Assembly (NCBI GenBank): GCA_009914755.4
Contig: CP086569.2
Location: forward strand, 8,000,001 to 8,064,000
Reading direction: 5' to 3'
Length of the DNA: 64,000 nucleotides
DNA from: the human T2T-CHM13v2.0 reference genome, Homo sapiens
The notes under the pieces were generated by a model. The model saw only the letters and a program-made list of their open reading frames with translations, was not told the origin of the DNA and made no database searches. The translations under genes and the position numbers were made by a program. Shown here in pieces: positions 2,458-34,600 of this stretch (position 1 is its first letter; the number at the start of each line of letters is the position of its first letter).

Positions 2458-3062
<605 letters not shown>

Positions 3063-4281: not shown

Positions 4282-4603
<322 letters not shown>

Positions 4604-6847: not shown

Positions 6848-8090
<1,243 letters not shown>

Positions 8091-12050: not shown

Positions 12051-12093
<43 letters not shown>

Positions 12094-15000
12094 CCTAGGT
12101 GCTAATCCAAGTGATATGTTACAATGTTTCCTGTTGACACAACCCAACCTGGGTGAAGTGAAGAGCTACATGTCAAAATGCGTTGTAAATGCAGGGCCAA
12201 AGAACTAGAAGGGAGTCACATCACTTATGTGAAGGACCTAAATATAAGACGCAATTCTTTTTGTAGGCAGGTTTCAGGATGATAATTCACATCACCTGGC
12301 TGATGGTCCCAGTGATCCCCAATCCCACTTAAATATTTTGTTACAATAGGGGAGTCACAGCACCACAGGTGTGCTGAATTCTGGTTCAAGTGTTACCAAA
12401 CCACCTGTGCATGTGATCCATGTATGAGAGTAATTATTTCAACCTTCGACTGCTTTATATGTGTGAGATTTAGTACCTTATTCCCAGGCCATGTTCATGT
12501 GTGAGAATGACAAATGTGTCAGCTAGGCGTTCATAAAAGAGTTCCATTCTCACCTTATTGCTGGTGTCTGTTATGACACTCTTTGTATCATGAATGCTTT
12601 TTATAATACAACTGAGTATTATAATCATTTGTGAACTTTATATAAGTGAAAAACACAGGACTTTACTCATGGCGATGAGAGTGACTATGACAGTAAAAAT
12701 ACATCTGCTGGCTGGGTTCAGGTATGAGAGTTATTATGGTGCATGTTTGCTTAAACCAGGTATATGTCACAGGTTCACCTGTGAGCAGGGCCAAGGCAGG
12801 AGAAGCACATCACTTGGGTGCTGAGCCAGTGATAGAGTATAATCTAATTTTGAGGCTGGACCTAGTCAGAAGAGTCACATTACCTGGGTGCAGCTTCAAA
12901 TAGTATGTCACCAAGACCACTATAGAAAGGGAAGAAGAAAGAGAAAAGAGTCACTCAATCTATTTACTGGGCTCTGCAATATGTAATAAAGCCCACTTTT
13001 GGCAGAGTCTAGAATATGAAGGAGAGTCATATAACCTAGATTTTTCAATAATCAGTATGTCACCATTTCCTTAGTTAGCAGGACGCAGATAGGAGATGAG
13101 AGTCACATTACCTAGGTGTTGTCAAACAATATTTAACAATGTTGTCTGAGGGCAGGGAACTGGCATTGGATATAAATTACCTAGCTTACAGGGCCAGAGA
13201 TAAGTGACAATATTCCCCATTGGCAGGGTCCAGGTGGAAGAGTCACATTATTATGACTCTAAGCCAGCGTTATGTCACAATGTACCCATGGGAGGGAATT
13301 TAAGCTAAAAATTCTCAACACCTGGGTATTAGGCTTAGGAGTATGACAAATCTTCTTATCTTTGGAGGCGACACTATTAACTGTGAACTTGGTGTGTATA
13401 TGAAAGTCACAATTTCACATGTTTTCTGGGCCATTGTATGACACTCTACAACATTTGAAGGCTTTATACAGCATTCATGAGAGTTGCAAACCACTGAAAC
13501 CTACAAGCTTGTATGCATTCACAATCTTAAATATTGCCTTAATCCTAGGCTTAATAGTCAACATCTCTTCTGTAAGCTGTATTTGGAATAATACTCATTA
13601 TTATGCCTGTGAGCTGGATTCAGAAATGAGTCACAATCCCATCTGTGGCCAGATCCACATATGAATGTCACAATTACAGGTTTGTACTTTACTCATTTAT
13701 TAGACTAGGACCTGAACAGTGTGGTTATGTTATGTGGGATGGGGAGAACATTTGCTTTCATCTGGGAGTGTAATTGAGAGTCCCAATCATAACTTTTTGC
13801 AGCTGCCCATCATGAAACCCTCTGTACAACACTAGGAGGTTATACATTATGAGTTAGTATTGTAAAGTTTTGTGAGCTTGGTACAAATATGCAACTCAGG
13901 ACCTTATCTATTCAATTAAGCCTAGAGATGAAAGGCAGCATATCTTCTATTGTCTGAATTTCACTACAAGTTTGACAATCATACTTTAAACAGAAGTAAG
14001 GCATATGCCATATTCCCATTTGAGGGCAAAAAACTAAGTAGGAGGGCAACATCACTTAGCAGCTGTGTTAAACAACATGTGAAAATACCCACCCTGGGAA
14101 GAGCATAGGAATTAGAGTCACATTAAATGGGTGCTAGACTCAGCAATATGAACCATCCAACATGTGGAAAAACAAAAACAAAAACAACAAACAACAACAA
14201 CAACAAAACAGCCAAGGGATGAGAGCCAAAACACCTACATAATTGGCCCACAATCTGTCAAAATACCTTCTGTTGCTTTGGCACAGGCATGAGAGTCACA
14301 CTATCAGGATGCTGGGCACAGCAATATGTCATAATTCTTTCTGTATGCTGGACCAGGAAAAAGAGTATCATTAACTGGGTGCTGGCCTCTGCCATAGGTC
14401 AAAATTTCTGTTTGTGAGCAAGGTTTGAGGAAAAAAAACAAGAGTCATATAACCTGAGTGTTGGTATCAGTAATATGTCACAATTCCCCCAATGTAAAGA
14501 CCAGGCAGAAGAAGAGAGCCATTTCATGTAGGTCGTGGGCTCAGAGCTATATCTCAGTGTCCCTCCTAGGCATGTACGAAGTAGAAAATGAGTCCCATAT
14601 CACCTAGGTGCTTCCCTAGTTATATCACTTGGGTACAGCCTCAAGTAATGTGTCAGCATGCCAAATGTAGATGGGTTAAAGAAAAAAAGAGAATCACACA
14701 ATCTGGTTTCTGGGCTCAGCAATATTTAATCATTCTCTCTCTTGGCAGAGTTCAAGACGAATAGGAGAGACAGGTCACCTAGGTTTTGCACTCAAATAAT
14801 ATGTTACAATGGACATACGTGAAAATTCCTGTTTCCAGAGCCCAGGCAGAAGACACACATTATCATGATTTTGACCCATAATGCTCTTATGGAGAGGAAT
14901 TTAAACAAAAAAGACTCAACACCGGGATACTAGGCCAAGGGATATGACACAATCTCCTCATCTTTAAGGGTGACATCATTAACGTTAGATAGTTGTGTAT

Positions 15001-17990
15001 ATGAGCATCACAATCTCATGTGTGTGCTGACCATAGTATGACACTCCCTACAACATCTGAGAATTTTATACAAGAGGCATGAGAGTAGCAAAACTCTGAG
15101 GCCTATATGGTTATATGAACTCACCATCTTACATATTGCCCTAAACCCAGGTATGACAGTCAACATCTCTCCTATAGGCTGGCTTCAGGGATGAGACCAT
15201 TATTATGCCTGTGAGCTGGGTCCAGAAATGGGTCACCATCACACCTGTGGCCAGATTCATTTCTGAAATTCACAATTCCAACTTTGTGCTTTATTCACTT
15301 GTTAGACTCATGACCTCATCAGTGGGCCTTGTAAATGTAGAATAGTAACAACTTTTACTTTCACCTTAGTTTGTAGTCTAGAGTCATAATCTTAACTTTT
15401 TGCTGGGTTCTGTTATAAAACACTCTGTTCCACCCAAGAAGTTTGTATGATGTGAGTTGGTGTTGTAAACTTCTGTGAGATTTGTACACATTTGCAGTGA
15501 AGAACCTTACCTATTGACATAATCCTAGGGGTGAGAGGCATCCTATCTCCTATTGGTTGAATCCCAATATAAGCTTGATCATTAGGTTTTGAACTGAAGC
15601 AAGGTATATGTCACAATCCCATTTCTGGGCAAAAAAGTAGGCCGAAGGTTAACATCACTTTAAGTGTTCTGCCAAGCCATATATCACAATGCCCTCTCTA
15701 GGCAGAGCCTAAAAATGAGGCTGACATTAACTGTCAGTTTAAGCCAGAAATTTTATACAACCACAAGTGGAAGAATCCTAGCAATATGATGAGAGCCAAA
15801 GTACTTACAGAATGGGACAAAGATATGTCAAAATATCTTCTATGGTTCTGGCAAAGAAAGGAGAGTCTCATGATTAGTGTGCTAGGCCCAGCAATATGCC
15901 ATAATTTCCTCTTTATAAATGACCTAGGCAGAAGAGTAACATCATCTGGGTGCTGGGCCTTGAAATACAGTAAGTGTCCTGTTTGTGGGCATTGTTCAGC
16001 AAGAAGACATAAGTCATATTACCTAAGTGCTGGGCTCATCAACATGTCACAATATTCCCATTGTAAAGGCCCAGAAAGAAGTCATGTCACTTAGGTTATG
16101 GGCTCAGAGATATGGCCCAATGTAACCAGCAGGCATGGCTCAGGCAGAAAAAGACAGTCATATTCCCTAGGTGCTTCTTTAGGTATATGTTGCAATTTAA
16201 TATGTTGGCACAACCCAGGTAGAAAAGCAAAATCACTTTGTCCTGGGTCATGAGATATTCTTAAGTCACCCTTAGAGAAGGACCTAGACAAGAGAGTAAC
16301 ATCACCTAGATGCAGGTTTCACCCTTATGCCACAATGATACATGTGGGCAGAACCAAGCAGGAAGTCACATCAACTAAGTGATAGGCCCAGAGATATGTT
16401 CCAAAGCCCTCCTTAAAGCATGGCCCTGACAAAAGAGTACCATCACTTTTGTGCCTTGCCTAGCAATATGTCACTATTCAAGTCAGCAGGTCCCAAGCAG
16501 AAGAGCCATATCACCTACATGATATGTTCTGTGATATGTAAAAATGCCCTTTTTTGAGCATGGCCCTTGCAAAAGAGTATCATCACCTGTGTGCCTGGCC
16601 TAGAAATATGTCTCTGTTCTTCCCTGTGCTGCAGGACCGCTTCCAGAGAGGAGAGTTATGTCTTCTAGATGATGGACACAGTCATATATCACAATGATGT
16701 CTGTGGGCATGGTGTAGGCAAGAATGTAACATCACCTAGGTGCTGGATCCAGTGATGTCACCATTCTTGCTAAGCATGATCCAGGCAGAAGAGTCACATC
16801 ATTTCAAGGTTGACCCATGTAGATATCAAAATCCCATATATAGTCTAGATCCAGTCTGAAGAATGAAATCATGCAGGTGCTTGCCATAGATTTATATCAC
16901 AAAGTTCTGGAATTATAGGCATTAGCCACTGTGCCCGGCCTTTGAGTACAACTTTGTGTGAGATTTAGTACTTTATTTGTACCTGTTCTTGTGAGAGAAT
17001 AAAAATGAGGTCAGCTGGGTGTGCAACCAAGAGTCACAATTGCATCTGGTTGCTGCTGTTCCCTGTTATGACACTCTTTGTATTACTCAGGATTTATATG
17101 ATATGCCTGAGTTTCATAATCCTCTGTGAAATTCATGCAATTATGAGACCAATTACTTTACTTATTGCTGTAAGACTGACTATGAGATCCAAAATATCTC
17201 TCCCTTCTGGATCCAGGTATGAGAGTTATATTAGTGCATGTGAGTTGAACCTAGGTATATGTCACAATTTCACCTGTGGGCAGAAACAAGGCAGGAGGGT
17301 CTCATCCCCTAGATTCTGAGCTCAGGATGCATTATAATCTTCTTTGCAGCCAGGGCAAGTCAGAAGTGTTATATCACCTGGGTAAAGCCCCAAATAATAT
17401 GACACCATGTTCCCTGTAGACAGGGTGTGAAGAAAAAGAGGAGAGTCACACCACCTTGGTGCTGGGCTTGGCAATATGTAATAATCTCCTTTTTTTGCAG
17501 ACTCCATAATAAAAGGAAGAGTTGCATTACCTAGGTTTTGCACTCAGCATCATGTTGCATTACTTAATGCAACATAATGCACTCAGCATTATGTCAGTAC
17601 CATAATGCACTCAGCATTATGTCATGATTAGTTTAGTAGGCAGGACCCTGTGATCAGGGCCTAGAAAAGACAATCAAATAATTCATGGGCTGGGCAAAGG
17701 CTGTTGTCTTAATTACACTCTCAGTAATATTTGGAAATAAGTCTCACATCCCACACAAGTCCTGGTTTTGTACATGTGAGTCAAATCTTTCTATGAGTTT
17801 TTGTATATGTGAGTATATGAGTTTTGGTATATGTGAGTCAACTCTTTCTATGAGTTGGGTCAAAGTAGTCGAGTCACAATCTCAACAATGGGTAAGATTT
17901 ATGTGTAAGAACTCCAATCGCACTTGAAGATTGTGTTTCAGTAGGGGAATTACAGCATGACAGGTGTGCTGAATCATGATTTAAATATTG

Positions 17991-18290
17991 CTCACTCCTT
18001 CAATCCCGACACTTTGGGAGGCCAAGACAGGAGGATCACTTGAAGCCAAGATTTTAAGACCACCCTGGGTAACATAGCAAGACCCTATCTCTACAAAAAA
18101 TTGAAAAATTATCCAGGCATGGTGGTGCATGCCTGTTGTCCTAGCTACTCAAGAGGCTGCAGAGGGAGGATCGCTTGAGCCCAGGAGTTTGAGGTTACAG
18201 TGAGCTGTGATTGTCCCACTGCACTTCAGCATGGGCAACAGAGTGAGACTTGTCTCTGAAACAAACCAATACTAAATTAAATAAAACATA
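17991..18290 (+). mobile_element. Alu (5'-truncated by ~12 bp, older subfamily), plus orientation, inside the satellite
   Basis: ctcactccttcaatcccgacactttgggaggccaagacaggaggatcacttgaagcc...gcccaggagtttgaggttacagtgagctgtgattgtcccactgcacttcagcatgggcaacagagtgagac. Confidence 0.85.
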
Positions 18291-18510
18291 AGCACAAATA
18301 CACACTCACACACATACAAGAGTATATATATATCCTAAAGTTTATTCCACAGTAACCATAGTAATATATAGAGATTTTTCTAATTCTTTTTACAGCTGCA
18401 TAATAATCGGTTGTGTTAATCTTCATAGTTTATTTAACTATTCTGTGTTATTGAATATTTGGATTATTTGCAATCCACTTGCTATTAAAAACGGTGGTTC
18501 AATAAAAAAA
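18291..18510. other. Unclassified ~220 bp non-satellite insert just 3' of the Alu, ending in a short poly-A; the satellite resumes in phase afterwards
   Basis: Sequence ataagcacaaatacacactcacacacatacaag...ccacttgctattaaaaacggtggttcaataaaaaaaatt has no satellite motifs. The array resumes with accaaagcacctgtgaatctgatctatgtatgagag, homologous to 12390. Confidence 0.4.
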
Positions 18511-19439
18511 ATTACCAAAGCACCTGTGAATCTGATCTATGTATGAGAGTAATTATTTCAACCTTTGACTATTTTATATGTCAGATATAGTACCTCATTC
18601 CTAGACCCTGTTCAAGTTTGAGAATGACAATCATGTCAGATAGGTGTGCATACAAGAGTCACATTCTCAACTGGTTGCTGGTCTCTGTTATGACACTTTG
18701 TACCACTAAGTGTTTATGTGATAGGCCTGAGGGCTATAATCCTTTATGACCCTTATACAAGTGAAAAATCCAGGACTTTACCCATGACCATAAGACTGGC
18801 TGAGAGTCAAAATATCTCTACTGGCTGGGTCCAGGTGTGACAGATATTATTATAAATGTGTATTTAACTCCGGTATATGTCACAATTTCACCTGTGAGCA
18901 GGGACAAGGCAGGAGAGTCACATTACCTGAGTGCTGAGCCAGTGATACACTATGATATCATTTGCAGCCTGGTCTTATTCAGAAAGGTCATATCACCTAG
19001 GTAAAGCCTTAAATAGTACGTCACCAAGCCCATGACAGACAGGGAAGAAGAAAAAAAGGAGAGTCACTCCACTAAGGTGCTGGGATCTTCAATATGTAAT
19101 AATTCCCTCTCTTGGCAGAATCTAGAATATGAAGAAGAGCCACATCACCTAGGTTTTGCAATCAGTAGTATGTCATAATTTCTTTTGTCGTCAGGACCCA
19201 GGCAAGACATGAGAGTCACATGACCTAGATTAGTTAGCCAAATGATATTTCAGAATATCCTCTGGGGGCAGAGGCAGGAGAGAAAAATTGCCTAGCTTAC
19301 AGGCCAAAAGATATGTCATAATATTCCCCATTGTCAGGGTCCAGGCAGAAGAGTCATATTATTATGATTCTAACCTGGAGATATGTCACAGTTCATCTGT
19401 ATGTAGGAATTTATGCCAAAACATCTCAACACCTTGGTA

Positions 19440-19905
19440 GTAGGCCTACATCTCCTAGACGAGTCAGCTGCTCCCACAGAATCCTCACACGACCACCCCA
19501 ACCTCTCACCCTCAATAATTATCTTTCTATGCTATTAAAATTAATTGTGACCACCACCCCATCATACTCAAATATTCATTGGACCAATGCCAACTCTCTT
19601 AATAATTCTAATAATAAAGACCCTCAAATATCAGTAGTTGACCCTCATGTTTCAGGATATTCCTTAATAGTGATAGCCACAGTATAACCAAAAACAACCA
19701 TCATATCACCTAAATAAATAAAAAAAAGACTATTGACCCTATGAAACCCCCAAGAAAATTCAACACAATTCCACAACACACAGCATCACTAATAATTAAC
19801 TCTAGGCCTCCATAAATAGAAGAAAGTTTTGAAGAAAAACCTACAAACCTTACAGCCAAGGGAATACTTAATAAAAATAAAGCATATTACATTATTCTCA
19901 CATGG
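19440..19905 (-). pseudogene. MT-ND6: NUMT-derived MT-ND6 (partial, encoded on the complementary strand)
   Basis: ctatgctattaaaattaattgtgaccaccaccccatcatactc matches human cctacactattaaagtttaccacaaccaccaccccatcatactc. Lies upstream of tRNA-Glu as in mtDNA. Confidence 0.7.
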
Positions 19906-19974
19906 ACTATAACTATGACTAATGATATGAAAACCATCGTTGTACTTCAACTATAAGAACATTAATGACCAATA
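19906..19974 (-). pseudogene. MT-TE: NUMT-derived tRNA-Glu
   Basis: tattctcacatggactataactatgactaatgatatgaaaaccatcgttgtacttcaactataagaaca matches human tattctcgcacggactacaaccacgaccaatgatatgaaaaaccatcgttgtatttcaactacaagaac. Confidence 0.8.
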
Positions 19975-19976
19975 CT

Positions 19977-21078
19977 CACAAAACACATTGCTAATAAAAT
20001 TATTAACTACTAATTCATTGATCTTTCCACACCATCTAACATTTCTACATGATGAAACTTTGGATCACTTCTTGGTGGCTGCCTAATTCTCCAGATCCTC
20101 ACAGGATTATTCTTGGCCCTGCACTATACTTCAGACACCTCAACTGCATTTCCTTCAGTTGCTCATATCAGCCAAGATGTAAACTGCAGTTGAATGGTTT
20201 GTTATTTTCAGGACAATGGCCCTTCAATATTTTTCATCTGCTTCTTCTTATGTGTTGACCAAGGCTTATATTACAAATCATTTCTATTCCTGGAAACCTG
20301 AAATATTGGCATTATCCTCCTATTCACAACTATAGCATCAGCATTCATAGGCTACATGCTCCCATGGGACAAATATCATTTTGAGGCACTACAGTAATTA
20401 CAAATCTGCTATCAGCCATACAATATATTGGAACTGACCTGGTACAATGAATCTGAGGCAGATTCTCAGTGAACAAGGCCACCCTCAAACAACTATTCAG
20501 ATTCAATTTCATCTTACTTTTCAACCCTACAGCTCTAGCAACGATTCACCTTTTATTCTTGCATGAGAGAGGATTTTTAGGAGTTTCATCAGACCCAGAC
20601 AAAATCATGCTCCACCCCTACTATAAAACCAAAGATATCTAGGTTTAATTTTTCTTCTCCTTCTAATAACTCTAGTACTGTTTTCACCAGACCTCCTTAA
20701 CAACCCAGATAATTAGAGTTTAGCCAACCCCCTCAATACTCCACCCCACATTAACCAATACCTTTTTTTGGTGTACCCAATCTTACTACCTATCCCTAAC
20801 AACCTAGGAAGTGTACTGGCCCTCATATCATCCACTCTCATTCTAGCAGTTATTTCTGTACTTCACAAGTCTAAGCAACAAGGCATCATATGCCAGCCAT
20901 TAAATCAATGCATATTCTGAATCCTAGTGGCTGTTCTGTTTACATTCACATGAATCGGAGGGAAGCCATCAAATACCCTTTTATTGACATCAGACAGACA
21001 GCATCTATCATGTACTTCTCTACCATCCTCACCCTTATGCTGCTCACTACCCTAATTGAAAATAAATTACTTAAATGA
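19977..21078 (+). pseudogene. MT-CYB: NUMT-derived cytochrome b (near full-length, degenerate)
   Basis: ttaatgaccaatactcacaaaacacattgctaataaaatt...catgatgaaactttggatcacttcttggtggctgcctaattctccag matches human atgaccccaatacgcaaaactaaccccctaataaaatt...gcatgatgaaacttcggctcactccttggcgcctgcctgatcctccaa. Ends ...attgaaaataaattacttaaatga. Confidence 0.85.
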
Positions 21079-21081
21079 AAA

Positions 21082-21150
21082 TTCTCTTGTAGTATAATTC
21101 AATACTCTGATCTTCTAAACCAGAAATGGAGAATCCCCTCTACAGGACAA
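21082..21150 (+). pseudogene. MT-TT: NUMT-derived tRNA-Thr
   Basis: tctcttgtagtataattcaatactctgatcttctaaaccagaaatggagaatcccctctacaggaca matches human gtccttgtagtataaactaatacaccagtcttgtaaaccggagatgaaaacctttttccaaggaca. Confidence 0.75.
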
Positions 21151-21218
21151 CTCAAGAAAAAAGCATTTCTACTTCACCGTCAACTCCCAAAGCTGAAATT
21201 CTAATTAAATTATCCCTG
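21151..21218 (-). pseudogene. MT-TP: NUMT-derived tRNA-Pro
   Basis: caagaaaaaagcatttctacttcaccgtcaactcccaaagctgaaattctaattaaattatccctg matches human cagagaaaaagtctttaactccaccattagcacccaaagctaagattctaatttaaactattctctg. Confidence 0.75.
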
Positions 21219-22532
21219 AATTTTTTTACAGCACACACTTTAACTACTATGTCAGTATTAATCAACTAACACTAATACATTAGTGCTTTTATGTATTTTG
21301 TACATTACTGCTATCCCCATGAATAGTATGTATTACTATAATTGTTTATTCATACTTTCATACATGCAGATACATTACAAATCTGCTCCACATACATATA
21401 AGCATGTATTAACCTTCCCTTAATCAACTATGCTATATCTACTATTATTGACAGTACAATACAAATCTAATTTATATGAATATTGACCTATATTAGATAT
21501 CCTTAATATGACATAGTGCCTACATTTATTTTTCAGACATAACACATTTCTGTCAAGAAATCTCTTGTCAACATGGATATCCTCTACCAAATCCTGATCT
21601 CTTAATCTACCAACTTCTGTGAAATCACCATCCTAATTGGGAGTACTACCCACCTCATTCTGGGCCCTTAACACATGTGGCTGACTATTTTGAAAGTATA
21701 ACTGGCAACTGGTTCTTACTTCAGGACCATGAAACTAAGATCACTCACATGTTCCCCTTAAATAAGACATATTGATAGACTAAAGGCTACCACCATATTA
21801 ACCAGTAATGGGAGCACTATCATGCATTTGATATTTTTAACTTTGGAGGCTGCTGTCACTCACCATCAAGGAAAGCCTAGTCTCCTCTGAATCTGCTGTA
21901 CATGAATTCAGATTTAATTCCTGCCAAATCAATGGTAGAAACTGAGCTCGTATTGAATATTCTGGGCTGGCACAGGAACCATAGCTGTTAATTAATTCTT
22001 GCTTAAAAGACATAACAATTAGTCATTAGGCACGTATGTTCATGAAGGTATGCTCACTTTCAAGAACTACTTCTGATTAAATCCACAAACTCCTCCTCCC
22101 CTCATCACTGACTTTACCATCAACCAAGGTAAATTTATCTTTGCCAAATTCCAAAAACAAGAGACTAAACTGGAACACAGCTAGAACTCAAAAATCATAT
22201 TTTAACCATGAATACCCCAACTTCTACCCCAGGATTGAGGAAATTTTCCTAAAAATCTTAAGACCCAACAAATCAAGCCTCCATTTTATATAATGAATAT
22301 AATAACTAAACTTCCATCTTAACACTAATATAATAACCTGAGCATATCTCTCTAAAAGCGCCACCCCATGTATTATACCTTAAATCAATTATATTCTAAT
22401 TATGAGTAATCCTCTCAACTCAATCTCTGCCAATTCAACTTCAAAGGCCGTGAATTCTCAGAAGTGTAAATGACTACTTATATTTACTTCTCTCCTTCTC
22501 ATATTCTAATTTTAGACTTAAGTATCTATACA
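21219..22532 (+). pseudogene. NUMT-derived mitochondrial control region (D-loop)
   Basis: Lies between the tRNA-Pro and tRNA-Phe copies. Retains the conserved block ttcaggaccatgaaactaagatcactcacatgttccccttaaataagacat (human cttcagggtcataaagcctaaatagcccacacgttccccttaaataagacatcacgatg). Confidence 0.7.
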
Positions 22533-22605
22533 GTTAACATAGCTTTATTATTTCAAAGCAAGACACTGAAAATGTCTAGATGGGTCTAGACAATCCCATA
22601 AACAA
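22533..22605 (+). pseudogene. MT-TF: NUMT-derived tRNA-Phe
   Basis: gttaacatagctttattatttcaaagcaagacactgaaaatgtctagatgggtctagacaatcccataaacaaa matches human gtttatgtagcttacctcctcaaagcaatacactgaaaatgtttagacgggctcacatcaccccataaacaaa. Confidence 0.75.
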
Positions 22606-23120
22606 ACAGATTTAGTCCAGGCCTTTCTATTAGATCCTAGTAAGATTACACAAGCAAGCATCCCTGAGCCGGTGAAAATGCCTTATAGATCACCCGGATC
22701 AAAAGGAGTAAGAATCAAGGATGCACAAATGCAGCTCAAAACACTTTGCTCAATCACAACCCTGTGGGAAACAGCAGTGATAAATATTTAGTAATAAATG
22801 AATATTTAACTAAGCTATGCTGATATCCAGGGCTGGTCAGTTTCATGCCAGCCACCATGGCCATACGATTAACCCAAGCTAATGGAACACTGCATAAAGA
22901 GTGTGTAAGTTCTGCTCTCACTAAGGCTAAACTCCATCTAAGTTGTAAAAAACTCCAGCTGAAAAACAATATACTATGAAGGTGGTTTTATTATCCTGAA
23001 GGCACAATAGCCAAGACCCAAACAGGAATTAGATAACACACTATGCTCAGCCCTAAACTCTAATAGTTACATTAACAAAACCACCAGAATACTACAAGCA
23101 ACAGCTTAAAATTTAAAGGA
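22606..23120 (+). pseudogene. MT-RNR1: NUMT-derived 12S rRNA, 5' ~515 bp, split from the rest by the L1 insertion
   Basis: tagatttagtccaggcctttctattagatcctagtaagattacacaagcaagcatcc...gccagccaccatggccatacgattaacccaagctaatgg...acagcttaaaatttaaaggac matches human 12S up to ...cacagcttaaaactcaaaggacctggcgg. Confidence 0.85.
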
Positions 23121-25450
<2,330 letters not shown>

Positions 25451-25892
25451 AAAGGACTCAGCGGTGCTTTATATCCCTCTAGAGGAGCCTGTTTTTTAAT
25501 CAATAAAACCTGATATACCTCACCACTTCTTGCCCCCAACCTATATATCCCCCTCTTTAGAAAACCCTAAAATGGTTATAGAGTAAGCACAAGCATACCC
25601 ACAAAAATGTTAGATCAAGGTGTAGCTCCTGAGCTGGCAAGAAGTGGACTACATTTTCTGTACCCAGAATATCTCATAACAACTTCTATGAATTCTAAGG
25701 GCTCAAGGAGAATTTAGCAGTAAACCAAGAGCAGAGTGCTTGGTTGAATAAGGCCATGAAGCATGCATATACCACCTGTCACCCTCCTCAAATATTATTC
25801 TAGAAATTACTATTACTGAAAATTCTCCATGCACTTATAAAGGAGCTCCATGACAAAATGGTAAGCATACTGAAAAGTGTGCTTGGACAAAC
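25451..25892 (+). pseudogene. MT-RNR1: NUMT-derived 12S rRNA, 3' ~440 bp
   Basis: ggactcagcggtgctttatatccctctagaggagcctg...gtaagcatactgaaaagtgtgcttggacaaac matches human ...catggtaagtgtactggaaagtgcacttggacgaac. Confidence 0.85.
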
Positions 25893-25965
25893 AAAAGTGT
25901 AGTTTAACCCAAAGCATCTGGCTTACTCCCAGAAGATGTCATCACAACCTGATCACATTGAGCCA
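25893..25965 (+). pseudogene. MT-TV: NUMT-derived tRNA-Val
   Basis: aaaagtgtagtttaacccaaagcatctggcttactcccagaagatgtcatcacaacctgatcacattgagcc lies between the 12S and 16S copies. Compare human cagagtgtagcttaacacaaagcacccaacttacacttaggagatttcaacttaacttgaccgctctgagc. Confidence 0.7.
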
Positions 25966-27510
25966 GCTCTAGTCCCAAACCTCTCTAAAAATATAATAAA
26001 CTATCTTAATCATACTATTTATCTTAGACAAAAGTATAGGTGATAAATTTTTTTACCCTGGTGCAATAGACATAGTACCATAAGGAAAAGATGAAAAAAC
26101 TGAATAAAGCATTAGAAGGCAAAAACAAACCCTTTTATATTCTGAATAATGTATTGACTAGAAATAACTTTACACAGAGAACCATAGCCAAGTCCCCCAA
26201 ACCGGACTAGCTACTCAAGAACAGCTAAAAGAGCACAGAGTAGGAAGATTCATGAGTAGCAGTGACAAGCCTACTGAGACTGGTGATATCTGGTGGTCCA
26301 AGATAGAATCTTAGTTCAACTTATACTTACCCACAGAATTACTTAAACTCCCTGTAAGTTTAAATGTTATTCTAAAGAGGGACAGCTCTTTAGACCTTAG
26401 GAAACAACTTTCCTAGAGAAACTAAAAAATATTACCACCATAATTGGCCTCAAAGCAGCCCCGATTAGGAAAGCATTCAAGCTAAACATCCAATTACCTT
26501 AAATTCTAATCACCACACTAAACTTTAATATCACTTTGGACTAACTTATTACTTAATATAAGCAATAATGTTAATATAAGTAACATGAAAATATTCTTCT
26601 TTGGATAAGCTTATGTGAGACTGGAATAATTCACTGATAGTTAATAGCCCAATATTAATAATTGATATAATAAGCACCCTATTATTTATACTGTTAATCC
26701 AACACAGGTATGCTCTAAGGAATGATTAAAAAAACTAAAAGGAACTCAGCAAATCTTACTCTGGCTGTTTACCAAAAACTTCACCTCTAGCATTATCAGT
26801 ATTACAAACACTGCCTGTCCAGTGAAAAATGTTCAATGACCATGGTATCCTGAATGGACAAAGGTAGCATAGTTACTTGTTCCCTAAATAGGGACTTGTG
26901 TGAATGGCCATATGAGGGTTCATCTGTTTCTCACTTTTAATCAGTGAAATTGGTGACCTATCCATGAAGATGTGGATATAAACAAATAAGATGAGGAGAC
27001 CCTATGGAACTTTAATTCATTAATGTAAATAAAAACTCAAAAAATCCTCCAGACCCTAGTGTACTATCGCTGCATTAAAAATTTGGGTTATGGTGACCTT
27101 GGACCATAATTTAAACTTTGCACAACCTAAACTAAGACTGCACTAGTCTAAGAGAGTTGACACACATTGATCCAATAATTTCATCAATGAAATAAGTTAC
27201 CCTAGAGATAACAGCATAATCCTATTCTAGAGTTTATATCAAGAATAGGATTATGACCTATTGACCTTCATGTTTGATAAGGACATGCTAATGGTGTAGC
27301 CAGTATTAAGGATTCTTTTGTTCAGTGATTAAAGTCCTACATGATTTGAGTTCAGACCAGAGTAACCCAGGTCGGTTTCTATCTATTTAACTTTTCTCCT
27401 AGTATGAAAGGACAAGAGAAACAGGGCCCACTTCATAAAGCACCCTCACCCCACAGATGATGTTATCTTACTCTAATATATCACCATGCACCCTACCCAA
27501 GAGCAGGGTT
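25966..27510 (+). pseudogene. MT-RNR2: NUMT-derived 16S rRNA (near full-length)
   Basis: gtaccataaggaaaagatgaaaaa, ggaactcagcaaatcttactctggctgtttaccaaaaacttcacctctagcattatcagtatt, gggataacagc-like gagataacagcataatcctattctagagtttatatcaagaatagg, and the 3' end cagagtaacccaggtcggtttctatctattt...agcagggttt all match conserved 16S blocks. Confidence 0.85.
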
Positions 27511-27585
27511 TGTTAAGATGGCAGAACCTGGCAGTTTCATAAAACTTAAAGTTTATAATCAGAGGTTCAACTCCTCTTCTTAACA
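27511..27585 (+). pseudogene. MT-TL1: NUMT-derived tRNA-Leu(UUR)
   Basis: gttaagatggcagaacctggcagtttcataaaacttaaagtttataatcagaggttcaactcctcttcttaacaac matches human gttaagatggcagagcccggtaatcgcataaaacttaaaactttacagtcagaggttcaattcctcttcttaacaaca. Confidence 0.85.
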
Positions 27586-27587
27586 AC

Positions 27588-27956
27588 ATGCCTATAATTA
27601 ACTTTGTCCAACTTATTACTCCCACTCTAATTGCTATAGCATTCTTTACGCTCATTGAACAAAATATCTTAGGCTATATACAACAATGCAAAAGACTTAA
27701 CACTGTAGGTCCTACGGACTGATTCAACCATTCACTGATGGAATACACTACACACTGTATATTCACCAGAACTCTATATCACAAATTTTATTACAAAGAC
27801 CTTCTTTTACCCACCTTGTTTTTATAAATTGGAAGAGCATACCTCCAATTTAACTGTGAACACCTCACACATTTTCTATGAAAAAAAATTTCTATCACTT
27901 ACACTAGCATTCTGCATATATCACAATGTCTGTCCTAATTTTGAGCATTACACCCC
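27588..27956 (+). pseudogene. MT-ND1: NUMT-derived ND1 with a large internal deletion (~370 bp retained of ~956)
   Basis: 5' end ctaattgctatagcattctttacgctcattgaacaaaatatcttaggctatatacaacaatgcaaaagacttaacactgtaggtcctacggactg matches human ctaatcgcaatggcattcctaatgcttaccgaacgaaaaattctaggctatatacaactacgcaaaggccccaacgttgtaggcccctacgggct. The 3' end runs straight into tRNA-Ile. Total length is far too short for an intact ND1. Confidence 0.7.
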
Positions 27957-28026
27957 AAAGAAAATATGTCTGACAAAATAATTACTTTGACAGAGTAAAC
28001 AATAGGTGTTAAAATCCTCTTATCTC
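27957..28026 (+). pseudogene. MT-TI: NUMT-derived tRNA-Ile
   Basis: agaaaatatgtctgacaaaataattactttgacagagtaaacaataggtgttaaaatcctcttatctc matches human agaaatatgtctgataaaagagttactttgatagagtaaataataggagcttaaacccccttatttc. Confidence 0.8.
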
Positions 28027-28097
28027 TAGAATATAGGAATTGAACCTGCACCTGAGAATCCAAAATTCTCTGTGCTACCTATTACACCACGTCCTAA
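28027..28097 (-). pseudogene. MT-TQ: NUMT-derived tRNA-Gln
   Basis: tagaatataggaattgaacctgcacctgagaatccaaaattctctgtgctacctattacaccacgtcctaa matches human taggactatgagaatcgaacccatccctgagaatccaaaattctccgtgccacctatcacaccccatcctaa. Confidence 0.8.
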
Positions 28098-28098
28098 A

Positions 28099-28166
28099 TT
28101 AAGGTCAGCTAAATAAGCTATCAGGCCCATACACTAAAAATGTTGGTTATATCCTTCCCAAAGTAA
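28099..28166 (+). pseudogene. MT-TM: NUMT-derived tRNA-Met
   Basis: attaaggtcagctaaataagctatcaggcccatacactaaaaatgttggttatatccttcccaaagta matches human agtaaggtcagctaaataagctatcgggcccataccccgaaaatgttggttatacccttcccgtacta. Confidence 0.85.
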
Positions 28167-28655
28167 TTAATCCATTAGTTCAACTTATTATCTCCATTAC
28201 TATTTTCACAGAAACCCTTATCACAATGCTAGACTTACACTGATTTCTCATTTGAATGGAAATAGAAATAAATATAATTGATTTTACCTCAATCTCCATT
28301 AAAAAATAAGTTTCTGCTCTAGAGAAGCAGCCACCAAATATTTGTTTACACATACAACTGCATCTATAATTCTCATGATAGGTATTCTTTCCAATAAACT
28401 TTCCTCCAGGCAATGAATACTATTAATCAAATTTACCCTTAATAATAATAACTGCCCTAGTAATACGACTCAGAATAGCCCCCTTACTTCTAAGTCCCAG
28501 AGATAACCCAAAGAACCTCTCTTATATCTGGCATAATTCTCCTCACATGAGTAAACTAGCCTGTATCTCGATTATGTTTCAAATCTTCCATCAATGAACA
28601 TGAACATCCTCCTATCTATCAAGAACCTATCCATTATAGAGAAAGCTAAGTATTT
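28167..28655 (+). pseudogene. MT-ND2: NUMT-derived ND2, 5' ~490 bp only
   Basis: attaatccattagttcaacttattatctccattactattttcacagaaacccttatcacaatgctagacttacactgatttctcatttgaatggaaatagaaataaatat matches human attaatcccctggcccaacccgtcatctactctaccatctttgcaggcacactcatcacagcgctaagctcgcactgattttttacctgagtaggcctagaaataaacat. Mito-like sequence ends ~28650, where satellite monomers (atatggcacaatctaacatgtgggcagaaa) resume. Confidence 0.8.
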
Positions 28656-31600
28656 ACCAAGTTATATGGCACAATCTAACATGTGGGCAGAAATGAGGCA
28701 GAAGAGCTACATCACCAGGGTACAGCCCCTAGTAATGTGCTACCATGCCAAGTGAAGACAGGTATGAAGAAAAACAGAGAATCGCACCACCTGGGTGCTG
28801 GACTCAGAAATATATAATAATTCCTTCCCTTGAAAAAGTCAGGACAAAGGGGAGAGTCATGTCACCTAGGTTTTCACTTAGTGGTAGGTTACAATTTCTT
28901 TTGTGGGAAGGATCAAGGCAGGAGATAAGAGTCACATTACTTAGAAGTAATTCCACTGATATTCTAGTGGAATATCAGTGACCACCATAAACATGGCACT
29001 GGCAGCAGAGACAAAACACCTAGCCAATAGGCCTGGAGGTATATAAAAGTATTCTGTTTGCAGAGCACAGGCAGAAGAGTCACATTATCATGATTTTGAA
29101 CCTGTGATATGTAACAATGCCTTATGAAAAGGAATTAACCCAAAAAGTCTCAACCCAGAGGTACTAGGCCAAGGGATATGACAAAATCTCCTCATCTTTG
29201 AGGGTGACACCATTAACTGTTAGCTAATTGTGTATATAAGAGTCACAATCTATCCTGTTTGCTGGCCATTATATGACACTCTCTACAACATCTGAGAACT
29301 TTATACAAAATGCATGAGAGTTGCATACCTCCTTGAGGTCTAGATGCAAAATCTTTTTTGTTGCCCTAAACACAGGTATGACAGTCAACATCTCTCCTGT
29401 AGGCTGGCTTCAGGGATGAGAGTACTGTTATACCTGTGAGCTGGGTCCAGAAACGAGCCGCCATCCCACCTGTGGTCAGATTAAGCTATGAAAGTCAGAA
29501 TTCCAACTTTCTTCTGTATTCACTTCTTACAATCAGGACTTCAACAATGGGCTTTGTAAAGGTAGAATGGGAAAAACTTATACTTTCACTTGAATGTATA
29601 GTCAAGAGTTACAATATTAAATTTTTGCTGGGCCCTGTTATGAAACTCTCTGTACCACATAAGAAGTTTTTATAATATGAGTTAGTGTTGTTAATTTCCG
29701 TGAGCTTTATAAAAATATGCAATGAAGGACCTTACCTATTAACCTAAACCCAATGGTGAGAGTCAAAATATCTCCTTTTGGCTGAGTCTGAATATAAGGG
29801 TTAATCATTATGTTTTTGAATGAAGGAAAGTATATGTCATAATCCCATTTGTGGGCCAAAAAAAAAAATAGGATGTTAACATCCTTAGGACCTGTTTCAA
29901 GGAATATATCAAGGCAGGGTCTAGGAAAGACAGTCATATTAACTGAGGGCTGGAGCCAGCAATATGATACAACCACTAGTGGAGAAAATCCAGCAACGTG
30001 ATGAGAGCCAAAACACCTACACAACTGAACAGAGATACGTCAAAACACTTTCTATGGCTCTGGAACAGGCAGGAGAATCTTATCATTAGGGTGCAGGACT
30101 GAGCAGTAGGCTGTAATTTCTTCTTTATGCATGACCTAGGCAGAAGAGCAATATCATCCCAGTGCTGCAATCTGAAATACTGCAAAAGTCCTGTTTGTGG
30201 GTGTTTTTTGGCTACAAAACAAGAGCCACATTACCTAAGTGCTGGGCTCATCAATATGTCACAGTCTTCCCATTGTAAAGACCCAGACAGAAAAAAAGTC
30301 ACATCACTTAGAACATGGGCTCAGAGATATGACCCAATGTCATCAATATACAGGGCTCAGGTAGAAGAGAATCATATCACACCTAGGTGCTTCTTTATGT
30401 ACATGTCACAACCTAATATGCAGGCAAAATTATGGTGAAGAGCCACATCACCTGGTCCTGGGTTCTTAGATAATCACAAGTTCCCCTTAGAAAAGGCTCA
30501 GGCTAGAGAGTTATATCATCTAGGTGCAGGTTCCACCCTTACGTTACAAAGTTCCAAGTGGGCAGGGCCAAGTAGGATGTCATATCACCTAGATGATAGG
30601 CCCAGGGATATGTCACAAAGCCTTCCTAAAAGCATGGCCCTGGCAAAAGAGTACCATTGTGCTTGGCCTGGCAATGTGTCACTATACAAGTAGGCAGATC
30701 CCAAGCAAAAGAGCCGTATCACCTGCCTGATGGGCCCTGTGATATGTCAAAATGCCCTCTTTTGGTCATGGACCTGGCAAAATGGTATTATTACCTGTGT
30801 GCCTGGCCAAGGTATATGTCACTATATTGCCCTGTGTGTAGGGCTCATTCCAGAGAGGAGAGTTACATCTTGTAACTGATTGATGGAGTGATATGTCACA
30901 ATGATGTCTGTAGGCATGGTGCAAGCAAGAATGTAACATCATCTGGGTGCTGGATCCAATGATGTCACAATTCTTACCGAGAGCAGGTTCCAGGCAGAAG
31001 AGTCATATCACCAGGTAGACATCAAAATTCCCAATGTAGGCTGGAACCACTCTGATGAGTGAAATCACACAGGTGCTTGGCAAAGAATTATATCACTGTC
31101 ATGATAAAATAAAATTCTAGGGATTAGATTTAAAATACCACACATGTCCTGCTTTAATGTAAGACAGTTGCCTTCATCTATCTGTGATTGTGAAAATCTT
31201 TAAATCAGCTTGGAGCACATATGGGCTAAAAATTTCCTGTGGGTGCTTGGCCTTGTTATGACACTCTCTATAAAATCAAGGGTGTTATATAGTATATGTG
31301 ATGGTTTTAATATTCTGTGACCTTTTTACCAGAAGGAAATGCTGGACATCACTCATGTCCCTATACCTAGTTATGAGAGTCAACATTTCTCCTATCGGTT
31401 GAGTGTACGTATAAGAGTTATAATCTTGCCTTTGAGCTGTGCCTTGGTATAAGTCACCATCACCTCCTGTGGTTATTAAATAGTCAGGATAATTACAAAA
31501 CCTATATCCTAAGCCAGAAATATTCCAATATTATCTTTGAGACAGAAAAGTCACAAACCTTTTGTTCTAGGCCCAGCTCTATGGCATAATGCCCCTTGTG

Positions 31601-34600
31601 GAGAGTGTCCAGGCAGGAGAGTCATATCACCTGGATTATGGGCCCAGAGATATGTTACAATGCCTCCTGTTGAAAGGGTCCGGGGAAGAGACTCATGTAA
31701 TTTGGATGCAGGGCTTAGAAATGTTATACTCTTCACTAGAAGCAGGGTTGAGGCAAGAGAGGAGAGTCACATAACCTAGACTATGTGTCCAGAGATATGT
31801 TATGATCCCTTCTGAGGACACTGTGAAGACACAAGGGTCAAATCACCAAAGTCCTTGGCCCAGGTACATGTCAATATGCCATCTGTGGGCTAGAATTAGG
31901 CAGAATTATTAAATCACTCAGGAGAAAAGTAAATGTCACTATAACACCTGTGGACATGTTCAGGGATGAGAGTCATCATCCTGTATACATCTTGGCTCCA
32001 GGTACAAGAGTTGTTATTAGGCCTTTGACCTGGTCTTAGGTGTATGGCATAATATCACCTGTGGTCCAGGAGAAGAAAGGACAGCCGCATCACCTTAGTG
32101 GGTGCTGGTCTAGTGAATTATTACAATGTATTTTTGGGGCAGGACTCCGGAAGATGAGTCACATCACCAGGATACTTGTTTCAGTGATATATCTAAATCC
32201 CCACTATGGGGAGGGCTGAGGCAGGACAAGAGACAAAGTTCACATACTCAATTGGCCTGGATATATGTCACAATTTCCCCTGTGTGCACAAACATACAGG
32301 AGAGTAACCTCACCTTGGTGCTGGGTTCAGCAATGTGTCACAATCTCCCTGGTTGTCAGGGCCCAGGCAAGAGGGAAGAAACATCACCTAGGTTCTGAGA
32401 CAAGTGATATGTTACAAATTTTCCAATTGGCAGAGCCCTTGCACAAAAGAGTCACATCACCTGGGTTGAGATACCAGTTATGTGTCACAATGCACCCCAA
32501 GTGTCAGGCAAAGGCAATAGAAGGAATTCATGTCACTTACATGATGGACCATGATAAAAGCCACAATGCTCCTTGTAGGCAGGGTTCAGGCCAATATTTC
32601 ACATCAGCTGGGTGCTTGTCTCAGTAATACGAAAAAGTGCCCTCTGTCACATTGCCAAACAAGATGTTGTATATTGCATATATGCTTGATGCATATATGT
32701 CACAATTTCAACAGCGGTCTGGGCCTACAAAGGAGAGACAAAACACTCAGATGCTGGACAAAGTCATACTTCTCAATTACACAGTCAAAAATGTTCAGAA
32801 ATAAGTTTTACAGTCCCACAGAAGTCCTGGCTTCTGGTATGAAAGTCAACAGCTCCTATGATTTGGGTCAAAGTACAGGAGTCACAATCTGAACAATGGG
32901 CAATATCCCTGTATAAGAACCCCAGTTCCACTTGAAGACTGTTCCAAGAGATGAGTCAAAGCACTACAGGTATGCTGAATTATGGTTGAAACATCATCAA
33001 ACTACCCATGGATCAAATTCATGTATGAGAATACAACTTTAAGCTTTGACTGCTTATGTGTGTGATATTTAGTATCTCACTCATAGGCTCTGTTTATTTG
33101 TGAGAATGACAACTGTGTCAGCTGGGTGTGGATCCAAGAGTCACAATAGCCACTTGGTTGCTGGTGTCTGTTATGACACTTTTTGTACCACTCAGACCTT
33201 ATATAATATGTCTAAGTAGCATATTTTTCTGTAAATATTTACAGGTGGGAGATCTAGGACTTTACCCATGGTCCTAAGACTAGCTATGATAGTTGAAGTA
33301 TCATTCCTGGCTGGGACTAGGTATGAGAGTTATTATTGTGAATATGAGCTGAAGAAGGGTAGCACAACTTAGGTGTTGTGCCAAGCAATATGTCACAATG
33401 CTCTCTTTAGGCAGGGTCCAGTAATTAGTGTTACATTAACTGGGTGCTGGACCCAGCAATATGACACAATCCCAATGTGGGGGGCGGGGAACAGAAAAGT
33501 AATGAGAGCAAAAGAGCAAAAACACCTACAGAATAGGCCCACAATATGTGAAAATACTTTCTGTCACTCTGGCACAGGGAGGAGAGTTACATCATCAGGG
33601 CGTGGGGCCCAGAAATATGCCCTAATTATCTCCTTAGGCAGGAGTGAGGTAGAAAAGAAATATCATCTGGTTCCTGGCCCCTGCCAATATGTCAAAATTT
33701 CTTTTCATGGGCATGGTTCAGAAGCAAAAGTAGAGTCATATTGCATAAGTATTAGCCTTAGCGATATGCCACAACACCCCATTGTTAAGGCTCAGGGAGA
33801 AGAAAAGAGTCACTTCAATTAAAAAACAATCTTACATATATAGTCCAATGGCCCAAGTAAGCGGGGATCTGGCAGTAGAGAGGAGTCATATCACCTAGGT
33901 GCTTCACTAGGTATATGACATAATCTAACATGTGAGGTGAAAGGAGGTAGAGGAGCCACATCACCTTGATGCTGGGTTCTTAGATGTGTCACCAGGCTCC
34001 CTTAGGACAGGACCCAGGCAAGACTGTTACAACAAATAGATGCAGGTTCCACACTTATGTCACAAGGCTCCATGTGATCAGGGCCCAAGAAGTAAGTCAT
34101 ACCACCTAGATGACAGGCCCAGAATTATGTCACAATGTCCTCTTTGAGGCATAACCCTGTTGAAAGAGTGTGATCACCTGGATGCCTAGCCTAGCAATAG
34201 GACACCATCCAGGGAAAGCAGGACCCAAAAGGAGAGCAACATAACTTAGGTGATAGGCCAAGCGATTTTTCACAATGTCCCTCTTAGGACATGGGCCTAG
34301 CATAGGAGTGCCATACCCTGTGTGCCTGGCCCAGCTGTATGTTACTATTCCCCACTGTGTGAAAGGCCCATTCTAATGAGGAGAGTTATGTCACCCAAGT
34401 GGTTGACATAGTGAAATGTCACAATAATTTCTGTGGGCATGGCTCAGGAAAATGTAATATGACCTGGGTGCTGGATCTGGAGATATGTCATGATTCTTAC
34501 AGACAGCAGGGCCCAGGAAGGAGAGAAATATCACCCAGAGGTGGGTGGATACCACAATAACATATGTGGGCAGAAACCAGTATGGAGTGTCAGATCACAC

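What the first reader, a model, noticed from the sequence alone, without database searches (positions are those of the whole stretch)
19440..28655. Ancient 9.2 kb NUMT embedded in the satellite array, collinear across the D-loop
The insert reproduces the mtDNA order ND6(-)/tRNA-Glu(-)/CYTB/tRNA-Thr/tRNA-Pro(-)/control region/tRNA-Phe/12S/tRNA-Val/16S/tRNA-Leu/ND1/tRNA-Ile/tRNA-Gln(-)/tRNA-Met/ND2. It therefore spans the origin of the conventional mtDNA map. It comes from a continuous ~7 kb mtDNA fragment, about 43% of the genome. Divergence from human mtDNA is roughly 15% in the 12S block compared, so the insertion is old, predating great-ape divergence or older. A large NUMT inside tandem satellite is notable because array homogenisation would normally erase or duplicate such inserts, yet only one copy is present in 45 kb.
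Basis: partly seen in the sequence, partly recalled or inferred. Interest (0 to 1): 0.6.

Follow-up and report, generated by a model that had tools for sequence, protein, structure and literature searches.

The report
Old mitochondrial DNA insert on human Y
The region is a real, very old and heavily decayed copy of about 44% of the mitochondrial genome, later split by an L1 element. It is already catalogued and PCR-validated on the human Y chromosome, so it is an ordinary known feature.

Summary
The finding is real but already known. Window 19449-28659 holds one collinear mitochondrial fragment running ND6 to ND2 across the D-loop, covering mt positions ~14238-16569 and 1-4962 (44% of the mitochondrial map). 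A 2.3 kb 5'-inverted L1 with a 15-bp target-site duplication interrupts it, and ~585 bp of ND1 are missing.

My BLAST blocks against human mtDNA reproduce HSA_NumtS_575, 576 and 577 of RHNumtS.2 (human chrY, hg18 8,291,603-8,300,755). All 14 PCR primers published for those entries occur exactly once in the window.

12S is 75.7% identical to human mtDNA, and the other parts range from 58% to 88%. At sites invariant across mammals the copy differs at 11-12% (non-CpG) and about 50% (CpG).

CYTB residues and rRNA site patterns place the source near the base of anthropoids, roughly 40-60 Myr ago.

The surrounding "satellite" is a fossil array that looks like beta satellite. Its monomers are 52-72% alike and its larger units 67-79% alike. 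It was not being homogenised, so a single surviving copy is not surprising.

One loose end remains. A chimeric metagenome contig carries a less decayed relative of this insert, possibly a paralogue.

The parts
19449..28659 (+). Whole NUMT including the L1 insert. It corresponds to HSA_NumtS_575, 576 and 577, human chrY hg18 8,291,603-8,300,755.
   Evidence: Unique DNA lies between repeated flanks. The BLAST blocks and identities equal those in the RHNumtS.2 table. All 14 published primers match exactly.
19455..19892 (-). ND6 pseudogene, lacking ~89 bp of its 3' end, 67.7% identical to human.
   Evidence: Global alignment to human mtDNA. Translation with the mitochondrial code shows stops.
19893..19960 (-). 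tRNA-Glu remnant, 88% identical to human.
   Evidence: ARAGORN in mitochondrial mode reports a tRNA-like hit at c19892-19961 with a broken anticodon.
19965..21082 (+). CYTB pseudogene, 70.4% nucleotide identity to human, with three frame shifts and at least five in-frame stops.
   Evidence: The conceptual protein matches cytochrome b at E = 1e-154 in PDB and E = 4e-154 in the large protein database.
21083..21149 (+). tRNA-Thr remnant.
21152..21220 (-). tRNA-Pro.
   Evidence: ARAGORN places it at c21151-21219.
21221..22532 (+). Control region, 1312 bp. The left and central parts align to human up to ~21837. The right domain aligns only to the relative in contig L040.
22533..22604 (+). tRNA-Phe.
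22605..23122 (+). 12S rRNA, 5' part (up to mt ~1175).
23123..24620 (-). L1 insert, inverted 5' segment. It covers ORF2 from residue ~567 onward and contains a 315-codon open frame.
   Evidence: Six-frame translation. It is 93% identical to human L1 ORF2p 8sxt over 288 residues. It matches another L1 in the window on the opposite strand.
24621..25458 (+). L1 insert, direct 3' segment with an A-tail at 25441-25448. The right copy of the target-site duplication lies at 25444-25458 and the left copy at 23108-23122.
   Evidence: Sequence reading and self-BLAST.
25459..25892 (+). 12S rRNA, 3' part.
25893..25961 (+). tRNA-Val remnant, no longer recognised by ARAGORN.
25962..27512 (+). 16S rRNA, 76.1% identical to human.
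   Evidence: Rfam reports an LSU rRNA hit at 26960-27388 with 97 bits.
27513..27586 (+). tRNA-Leu(UUR), with a mutated anticodon.
27589..27960 (+). ND1 remnants. About 585 bp (mt ~3458-4057) are deleted at ~27740-27763.
27961..28029 (+). tRNA-Ile.
28027..28097 (-). tRNA-Gln.
28099..28166 (+). tRNA-Met.
28167..28659 (+). ND2 pseudogene, first ~490 bp (to mt ~4960).
8307..19448 (.). Left flank: a degenerate tandem array that looks like beta satellite.
28660..53800 (.). Right flank: the same degenerate array.

Best explanation
This is a dead nuclear copy of mitochondrial DNA (a NUMT) on the human Y chromosome. It is the one catalogued as HSA_NumtS_575, 576 and 577.

Origin: a single linear mtDNA fragment running from inside ND6 through CYTB, the control region, both rRNAs and ND1 to the first third of ND2 was joined into an already old array that looks like beta satellite. 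The joining was most likely repair of a double-strand break by end joining. That step is inferred: no target-site duplication is visible.

Timing: the source mtDNA belonged to an early anthropoid ancestor, roughly 40-60 Myr ago.

Later history: the copy has drifted neutrally ever since, probably faster than average because it is Y-linked. It lost ~585 bp of ND1. Much later it received a 5'-inverted (twin-primed) L1PA-type element inside 12S. It has no function.
For: Shown:
- All 16 mitochondrial features are in mitochondrial order and on one strand, with no foreign DNA except the L1.
- My blocks mt 14274-..., 596-1175 (77.6%), 1159-3458 (74.5%) and 4057-4959 (71.8%) are the same numbers as in RHNumtS.2 for chrY.
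- All 14 validation primers hit once each, in the right order, and window coordinate + 8,272,116 equals the hg18 chrY coordinate.
- Pseudogene state: there are frame shifts and stops in CYTB, ND6, ND1 and ND2. CpG observed/expected is 0.09 against 0.35-0.43 in live mtDNAs. The copy differs at 11-12% of non-CpG sites and ~50% of CpG sites that are invariant in human plus 3-8 other mammals, even inside blocks of 15 or more invariant columns.
- Age from CYTB: the copy shares 13 anthropoid-specific residues and keeps the non-anthropoid state at 9 sites. It is ancestral at 21 of the 24 informative hominoid-derived sites (33 inferred changes in all).
- Age from rRNA: at sites fixed in the non-primates but changed in human, it has the human state at 50-56%.
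- L1: the target-site duplication is AAAATTTAAAGGACT / AAAAATTAAAGGACT at a TT|AAAA site, and there is an A-tail. The inverted segment abuts the direct segment in L1 coordinates. The reverse-transcriptase region is 93% identical to human ORF2p with a 315-codon open frame, so the L1 is much younger than the NUMT.
Against: The date is soft. No non-human primate mtDNA nucleotide sequences could be obtained, so no proper tree was built. The decay level would give more than 60 Myr at autosomal rates and needs the faster Y rate, which rests on established knowledge and was not tested here. Three hominoid-type and several platyrrhine-type CYTB residues blur the placement. End joining is inferred only from the lack of a duplication, and the empty site cannot be rebuilt because the array units are too diverged. 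The related sequence in contig L040 is unexplained.
Confidence: 0.95

Rival explanations
1. The insert is younger than the catarrhine-platyrrhine split (about 25-40 Myr), and its heavy decay simply reflects the high Y-chromosome mutation rate.
For: Three hominoid-derived CYTB residues (L43, L209, T362) are present. The relative in L040 carries only ~4-5% private change, which fits 35-40 Myr at autosomal rates. Male-driven mutation is established knowledge.
Against: The copy is ancestral at 21 of the 24 informative hominoid-derived CYTB sites (33 inferred changes in all) and keeps 9 non-anthropoid residues. Only half of the human-lineage rRNA changes are present. The right domain of the control region cannot be aligned to human.
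Confidence: 0.3
2. These are three separate mitochondrial insertions that happen to lie side by side, as the three catalogue entries might suggest.
For: RHNumtS.2 lists three IDs with gaps of 288 and 783 bp between them.
Against: The gaps are themselves control-region sequence. Window 22058-22532 aligns at ~81% to the D-loop right domain of the L040 relative and runs straight into tRNA-Phe. Strand, order and level of decay are uniform.
Confidence: 0.03
3. The mitochondrial source was a New World monkey lineage, or the window is not human.
For: The best CYTB protein hits are all platyrrhines. The copy shares many states with the L040 sequence against human mtDNA.
Against: The window is human chrY by coordinates and by 14 exact primers. 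The copy lacks the clean platyrrhine-wide residues K111, S158, T243, I320 and I364. The platyrrhine hits are explained by their slowly evolving CYTB. Polarity at the fast rRNA sites is uninformative, with a 45:38 split.
Confidence: 0.01
4. It is a recent insertion, a contamination or an assembly artefact.
For: None.
Against: Identity to human mtDNA is 58-88% by feature. The coding regions carry stops and frame shifts. An L1 with a target-site duplication sits inside it. Simone et al. 2011 amplified and sequenced it independently by PCR (PMC3228558).
Confidence: 0.01

Closest known systems
HSA_NumtS_575 / 576 / 577 (RHNumtS.2, Simone et al. 2011, PMC3228558; earlier IDs 183 and 184)
   Same: It is the same locus. 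The mitochondrial coordinates, block identities, 2.3 kb gap, ND1 gap and primer sequences all match.
   Different: The catalogue splits it into three entries and does not join them across the D-loop. Here they are shown to be one collinear fragment with its control region intact in between.
HSA_NumtS_308, chr8 hg18 47,858,025-47,869,814
   Same: It has nearly the same mitochondrial extent (14424-16569 plus 1-5133), also crosses the D-loop, also has an internal ND1 gap (3521-4246) and has similar identity to human mtDNA of 72-78%.
   Different: It lies on a different chromosome and carries a ~5 kb insert at mt ~670 instead of a 2.3 kb L1 at mt 1176.
L1 insertions with 5' inversion (twin priming; recalled from the literature, Ostertag and Kazazian 2001)
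   Same: It has a 15-bp target-site duplication at a TT|AAAA site and an A-tail. The inverted 5' segment ends about 23 nt from where the direct segment starts in L1 coordinates.
   Different: Nothing unusual.
Beta (Sau3A) satellite, 68-bp monomer in higher-order units (PMC8125562)
   Same: The array has a ~70-76 bp period, higher-order spacings of 3.5-5.2 kb, and a monomer consensus with the blocks AGAGTCACATCACCT and GATATGTCACAAT.
   Different: It is far more degenerate than active arrays, with 52-72% monomer matches. The match to the family consensus rests on memory only.

Membership tests
NUMT (nuclear mitochondrial DNA segment) | Significant similarity to mtDNA over several genes | tested here: met
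   BLASTN to human mtDNA gives bit scores of 450-1420. CYTB matches at E = 1e-154. Rfam finds an LSU rRNA and a tRNA hit.
NUMT (nuclear mitochondrial DNA segment) | Collinear with the mitochondrial gene order | tested here: met
   All 16 features lie in vertebrate mitochondrial order and orientation.
NUMT (nuclear mitochondrial DNA segment) | Embedded in nuclear DNA | tested here: met
   The flanks are a tandem array, L1, Alu and a ZNF pseudogene. The locus maps to chrY in RHNumtS.2.
NUMT (nuclear mitochondrial DNA segment) | Not the live organelle genome: loss of coding capacity and nuclear-type decay | tested here: met
   There are stops and frame shifts. CpG observed/expected is 0.09. The copy differs at 11-12% of mammal-invariant sites.
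NUMT (nuclear mitochondrial DNA segment) | Independent confirmation that it is not an assembly artefact | not testable with these tools
   This rests on the PCR and sequencing reported in PMC3228558 Additional file 3. Only the primer sites were checked here.
L1 retrotransposition by target-primed reverse transcription with twin priming | Target-site duplication, A-tail and endonuclease-type target | tested here: met
   The duplicated copies lie at 23108-23122 and 25444-25458, with A8 before the right copy and TT|AAAA at the left.
L1 retrotransposition by target-primed reverse transcription with twin priming | Inverted 5' segment contiguous in L1 coordinates with the direct 3' segment | tested here: met
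   Window 23126-23505 matches another L1 copy at 1607-1228, and 24621-25448 matches it at 1631-2456. ORF2 homology ends at 24620.
Beta satellite | 68-bp monomer related to the family consensus | tested here: inconclusive
   The period is 70-76 bp. Similarity to the consensus was judged from memory because no repeat library was available.

The most novel reading that the evidence does not exclude
The Y-linked insert and the less decayed relative seen in contig L040 may be paralogues of one ~50-Myr-old insertion that was duplicated between chromosomes early in anthropoid evolution. HSA_NumtS_308 on 8q11.1 is a candidate for that relative, but no sequence comparison with it was possible. If so, the roughly 2:1 ratio of private changes (about 10% against 4-5%) would be an internally controlled, long-term measure of male-driven mutation. 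The insert would also date the origin of this block of Yp11.2.
Probability: 0.3. Interest if true: 0.35.

Novelty: already known. Interest (0 to 1): 0.1.

Why it matters
It matters little. The locus is a catalogued human NUMT and behaves as expected for an old pseudogene.

It has three minor uses:
- It shows that three catalogue entries are one fragment.
- It gives a worked example of dating a NUMT from decay at invariant sites together with lineage-specific residues.
- It flags a possible paralogue pair that could be used to measure Y-versus-autosome mutation rates.

Tried and rejected
- A scan of viral contigs for a mammalian 12S motif found nothing.
- Four exact-protein look-ups found nothing on record: an Aotus CYTB, two versions of the L1 open frame and a junction ORF. 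Primate mitogenomes and orthologous loci could therefore not be fetched.
- I pursued the idea that the host or the source was a New World monkey. The grounds were that the best CYTB hits are platyrrhines and that the insert groups with the non-human part of L040 against human mtDNA. I dropped this after the L1 proved close to human L1 and the catalogue and primers fixed the locus on human chrY.
- I also considered L040 to be a live monkey mitogenome, because its tRNAs fold and its CpG is retained. That reading would need a control region and variable 16S that changed only 3-8% in more than 40 Myr. A nuclear paralogue fits better, but this is unproven.
- The outgroup relative-rate test proved uninformative, because polarity at the fast sites is about 50:50.
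- The empty insertion site could not be reconstructed from paralogous array units.
- HSA_NumtS entries of similar size on chr2, 5, 7, 8, 11, 17, 19 and X were checked and do not match.
Full report
**What is there.** GC skew turns strongly negative at 19-23 kb and 27-29 kb. Rfam finds a large-subunit rRNA piece and a tRNA there, and ARAGORN in mammalian mitochondrial mode finds Glu-like, Pro, Phe, Leu-like and Gln tRNAs in mitochondrial order. Self-BLAST of the window shows repeated DNA up to 19448 and again from 28660. Between them, 19449-23125 and 25454-28659 are unique, and 23126-25453 matches other L1 pieces in the window.

**Reference mtDNA.** No mitochondrial database was available. I therefore fished mammalian mtDNA out of contaminated bacterial and metagenome assemblies using a 12S motif. 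Several loci translate to the human ND1, ND2 and CYTB proteins. Others are pig-like or other non-primate mammals.

**Anatomy.** A global alignment to a human reference in rCRS numbering gives the following map.

| Feature | Window position | Identity to human |
|---|---|---|
| ND6(-), lacking ~89 bp | 19455-19892 | 67.7% |
| tRNA-Glu(-) | 19893-19960 | 88.2% |
| CYTB | 19965-21082 | 70.4% |
| tRNA-Thr | 21083-21149 | 66.7% |
| tRNA-Pro(-) | 21152-21220 | 64.7% |
| Control region (1312 bp) | 21221-22532 | 58.2% |
| tRNA-Phe | 22533-22604 | 74.6% |
| 12S (split by the L1) | 22605-23122 and 25459-25892 | 75.7% |
| tRNA-Val | 25893-25961 | 69.6% |
| 16S | 25962-27512 | 76.1% |
| tRNA-Leu(UUR) | 27513-27586 | 86.5% |
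| ND1 remnants | 27589-27960 | 68.7% |
| tRNA-Ile | 27961-28029 | 82.6% |
| tRNA-Gln(-) | 28027-28097 | 81.7% |
| tRNA-Met | 28099-28166 | 86.8% |
| ND2, first ~490 bp | 28167-28659 | 68.0% |

The fragment spans mt ~14238-16569 and 1-4962, which is 7.29 kb or 44% of the genome. About 585 bp of ND1 (mt ~3458-4057) are missing. The "about 15% divergence in 12S" is wrong; it is about 24%.

**Identity of the locus.** The human NUMT catalogue RHNumtS.2 (PMC3228558, Additional file 1) lists three entries on chrY, plus strand, in hg18 coordinates:
- HSA_NumtS_575: mt 14274-16017, chrY 8291603-8293329, 70.2% identity.
- HSA_NumtS_576: mt 16294-16561, 68.5% identity.
- HSA_NumtS_577: mt 596-1175 at 77.62%, then a 2.3 kb gap, then 1159-3458 at 74.5%, then 4057-4959 at 71.84%, ending at chrY 8300755.

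These are the same block ends and identities that I had obtained independently. Window coordinate plus 8,272,116 gives the hg18 coordinate. All 14 PCR primers that the paper used to amplify and sequence these entries occur exactly once each in the window, in the right order and orientation. The window is therefore human Yp11.2, and the insert is already known and validated at the bench. The catalogue splits it in three.

**The L1.** The insert at 23123-25458 has three parts:
- an inverted segment at 23123-24620, covering ORF2 from residue ~567;
- a direct 3' segment at 24621-25449 ending in A8;
- a 15-bp target-site duplication, at 23108-23122 and 25444-25458, at a TT|AAAA site.

Against another L1 copy in the window, the inverted segment ends 23 nt before the direct one begins. 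This is the signature of twin priming. The reverse-transcriptase region keeps a 315-codon open frame and is 93% identical to human L1 ORF2p. The L1 is therefore an L1PA-type element much younger than the mitochondrial copy.

**Decay.**
- CYTB has three frame shifts and at least five in-frame stops under the mitochondrial code, and ND6, ND1 and ND2 are equally broken.
- At columns identical in human and 3-8 other mammals, the copy differs at 10.8-11.9% of non-CpG sites and 43-47% of CpG sites.
- The non-CpG figure is 11.3-12.6% even within runs of 6-15 or more invariant columns, so it is not an alignment artefact.
- CpG observed/expected is 0.09, against 0.35-0.43 in live mitogenomes.

**Age.** Three rough lines of evidence agree.
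1. *CYTB residues compared with named primates.* The copy shares 13 residues specific to anthropoids. It keeps the non-anthropoid state at 9 sites where both anthropoid groups are derived. It is ancestral at 21 of the 24 informative hominoid-derived sites (33 inferred changes in all), and it lacks the clean platyrrhine-wide residues. This places the source near the base of crown anthropoids.
2. *rRNA site patterns.* At rRNA sites fixed in all the non-primates sampled but changed in human, the copy has the human state at 50-56%. That puts it about half-way along the human mitochondrial lineage since the split from the other mammals sampled.
3. *Amount of decay.* The 11-12% neutral decay is about twice what an autosomal locus would accumulate since the catarrhine-platyrrhine split. 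The higher Y-chromosome mutation rate is established knowledge but was not tested here. If it applies, this also points to roughly 45-55 Myr.

I put the insertion at 40-60 Myr. A somewhat younger date is not excluded.

**Context.** The flanks (8307-19448 and 28660-53800) form a tandem array with a 70-76 bp monomer and higher-order spacings of 3.5, 4.7 and 5.0-5.2 kb. The monomers are only 52-72% alike, and the best unit-to-unit identities are 75-79%. From memory, the consensus resembles beta satellite. Two copies that are 21-25% apart have each drifted about 10-12%, the same amount as the mitochondrial copy. The array therefore stopped duplicating at about the time of the insertion or before it. 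A recent survey of great-ape telomere-to-telomere genomes does report that satellites are depleted around NUMTs (PMC13629686). The location is thus mildly unusual but not new.

**A loose end.** Contig L040 (ENA ERZ1034133) is a chimera. Its middle is 100% human 12S. Its control-region right domain, tRNA-Phe, 12S end, tRNA-Val and 16S start are non-human and 81-89% identical to the window copy, in places where human mtDNA is 59-81% identical or cannot be aligned at all.
- The two share six changes at sites invariant in human and eight other mammals.
- Private change is about 10% in the window copy and about 4-5% in L040.
- A live mitogenome could hardly have changed so little in its fastest regions over more than 40 Myr.
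- I therefore read L040 as a nuclear paralogue of the same ancient insertion, on a chromosome that mutates more slowly.
- HSA_NumtS_308 on 8q11.1 has almost the same ends and also an ND1 gap. The L040 chimera junction falls at mt ~670, where that entry carries a 5 kb insert. This link is unproven.

**Mechanism.** Shown: the content, the single-fragment structure, the pseudogene state and the L1 retrotransposition hallmarks. Inferred: capture of a linear mtDNA fragment at a chromosome break by end joining, on the grounds that no target-site duplication is visible at 19448/19449 or 28659/28660; neutral drift since then; and no function.

**Verdict.** The finding is real, correctly recognised and old, but it is already known and ordinary. 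Interest is low.

Noticed in passing
L001-L007 (genome-contig hits): Mammalian mtDNA sits in assemblies filed as bacteria. Human pieces are in CALTZA010000022.1 (Francisella MAG), SEIO01000104.1 (Lentibacillus lipolyticus), BMRF01000083.1 (Actinomadura cremea JCM 3308) and SUSS01000108.1 (Tissierella creatinini). Contigs of whole-mitogenome length (16.5-16.7 kb) carrying non-human mammalian mtDNA are in CAAFXG010000492.1 (Lachnospiraceae MAG, pig-like), CALGBW010000058.1 (Chlamydiaceae MAG) and QFWI01000030.1 (Vampirovibrio MAG).
   Followed up: partly
L040:1-2279: This is a chimeric metagenome contig. Human 12S (100% identical) is flanked by a less decayed relative of the window's NUMT, and an 80-nt ND1-like piece is inserted in 16S. 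It may be a nuclear paralogue, with HSA_NumtS_308 on chr8 as a candidate.
   Followed up: partly
window 7064-8036: There is an array of about 9.5 zinc-finger-like 84-bp repeats with no long open frame. It is a decayed KRAB-ZNF-type pseudogene next to the satellite array.
   Followed up: no
window 4288-4603 (-): An Alu with AluSc/Y-type diagnostic bases and an intact A-rich tail lies here. By eye it is about 6% from the consensus I recall.
   Followed up: partly
window 1228-2456, 43699-43991, 53808-55167, 63885-64000: Further L1 fragments lie at these positions. The one at 43699-43991 sits inside the satellite array and is 90% identical to the 3' end of the L1 that splits the NUMT.
   Followed up: no
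window 9527-9593, 10792-10866, 28937-28993, 37051-37117: ARAGORN in mitochondrial mode calls tRNA-like folds inside the satellite array. They lie outside any mitochondrial homology and look like false positives of that permissive mode.
   Followed up: no
window 21221-22532: The control region of the copy is 1312 bp against 1122 bp in human, with 209 extra bases in the alignment. Whether the ancestral control region was longer or the copy gained sequence was not resolved.
   Followed up: no
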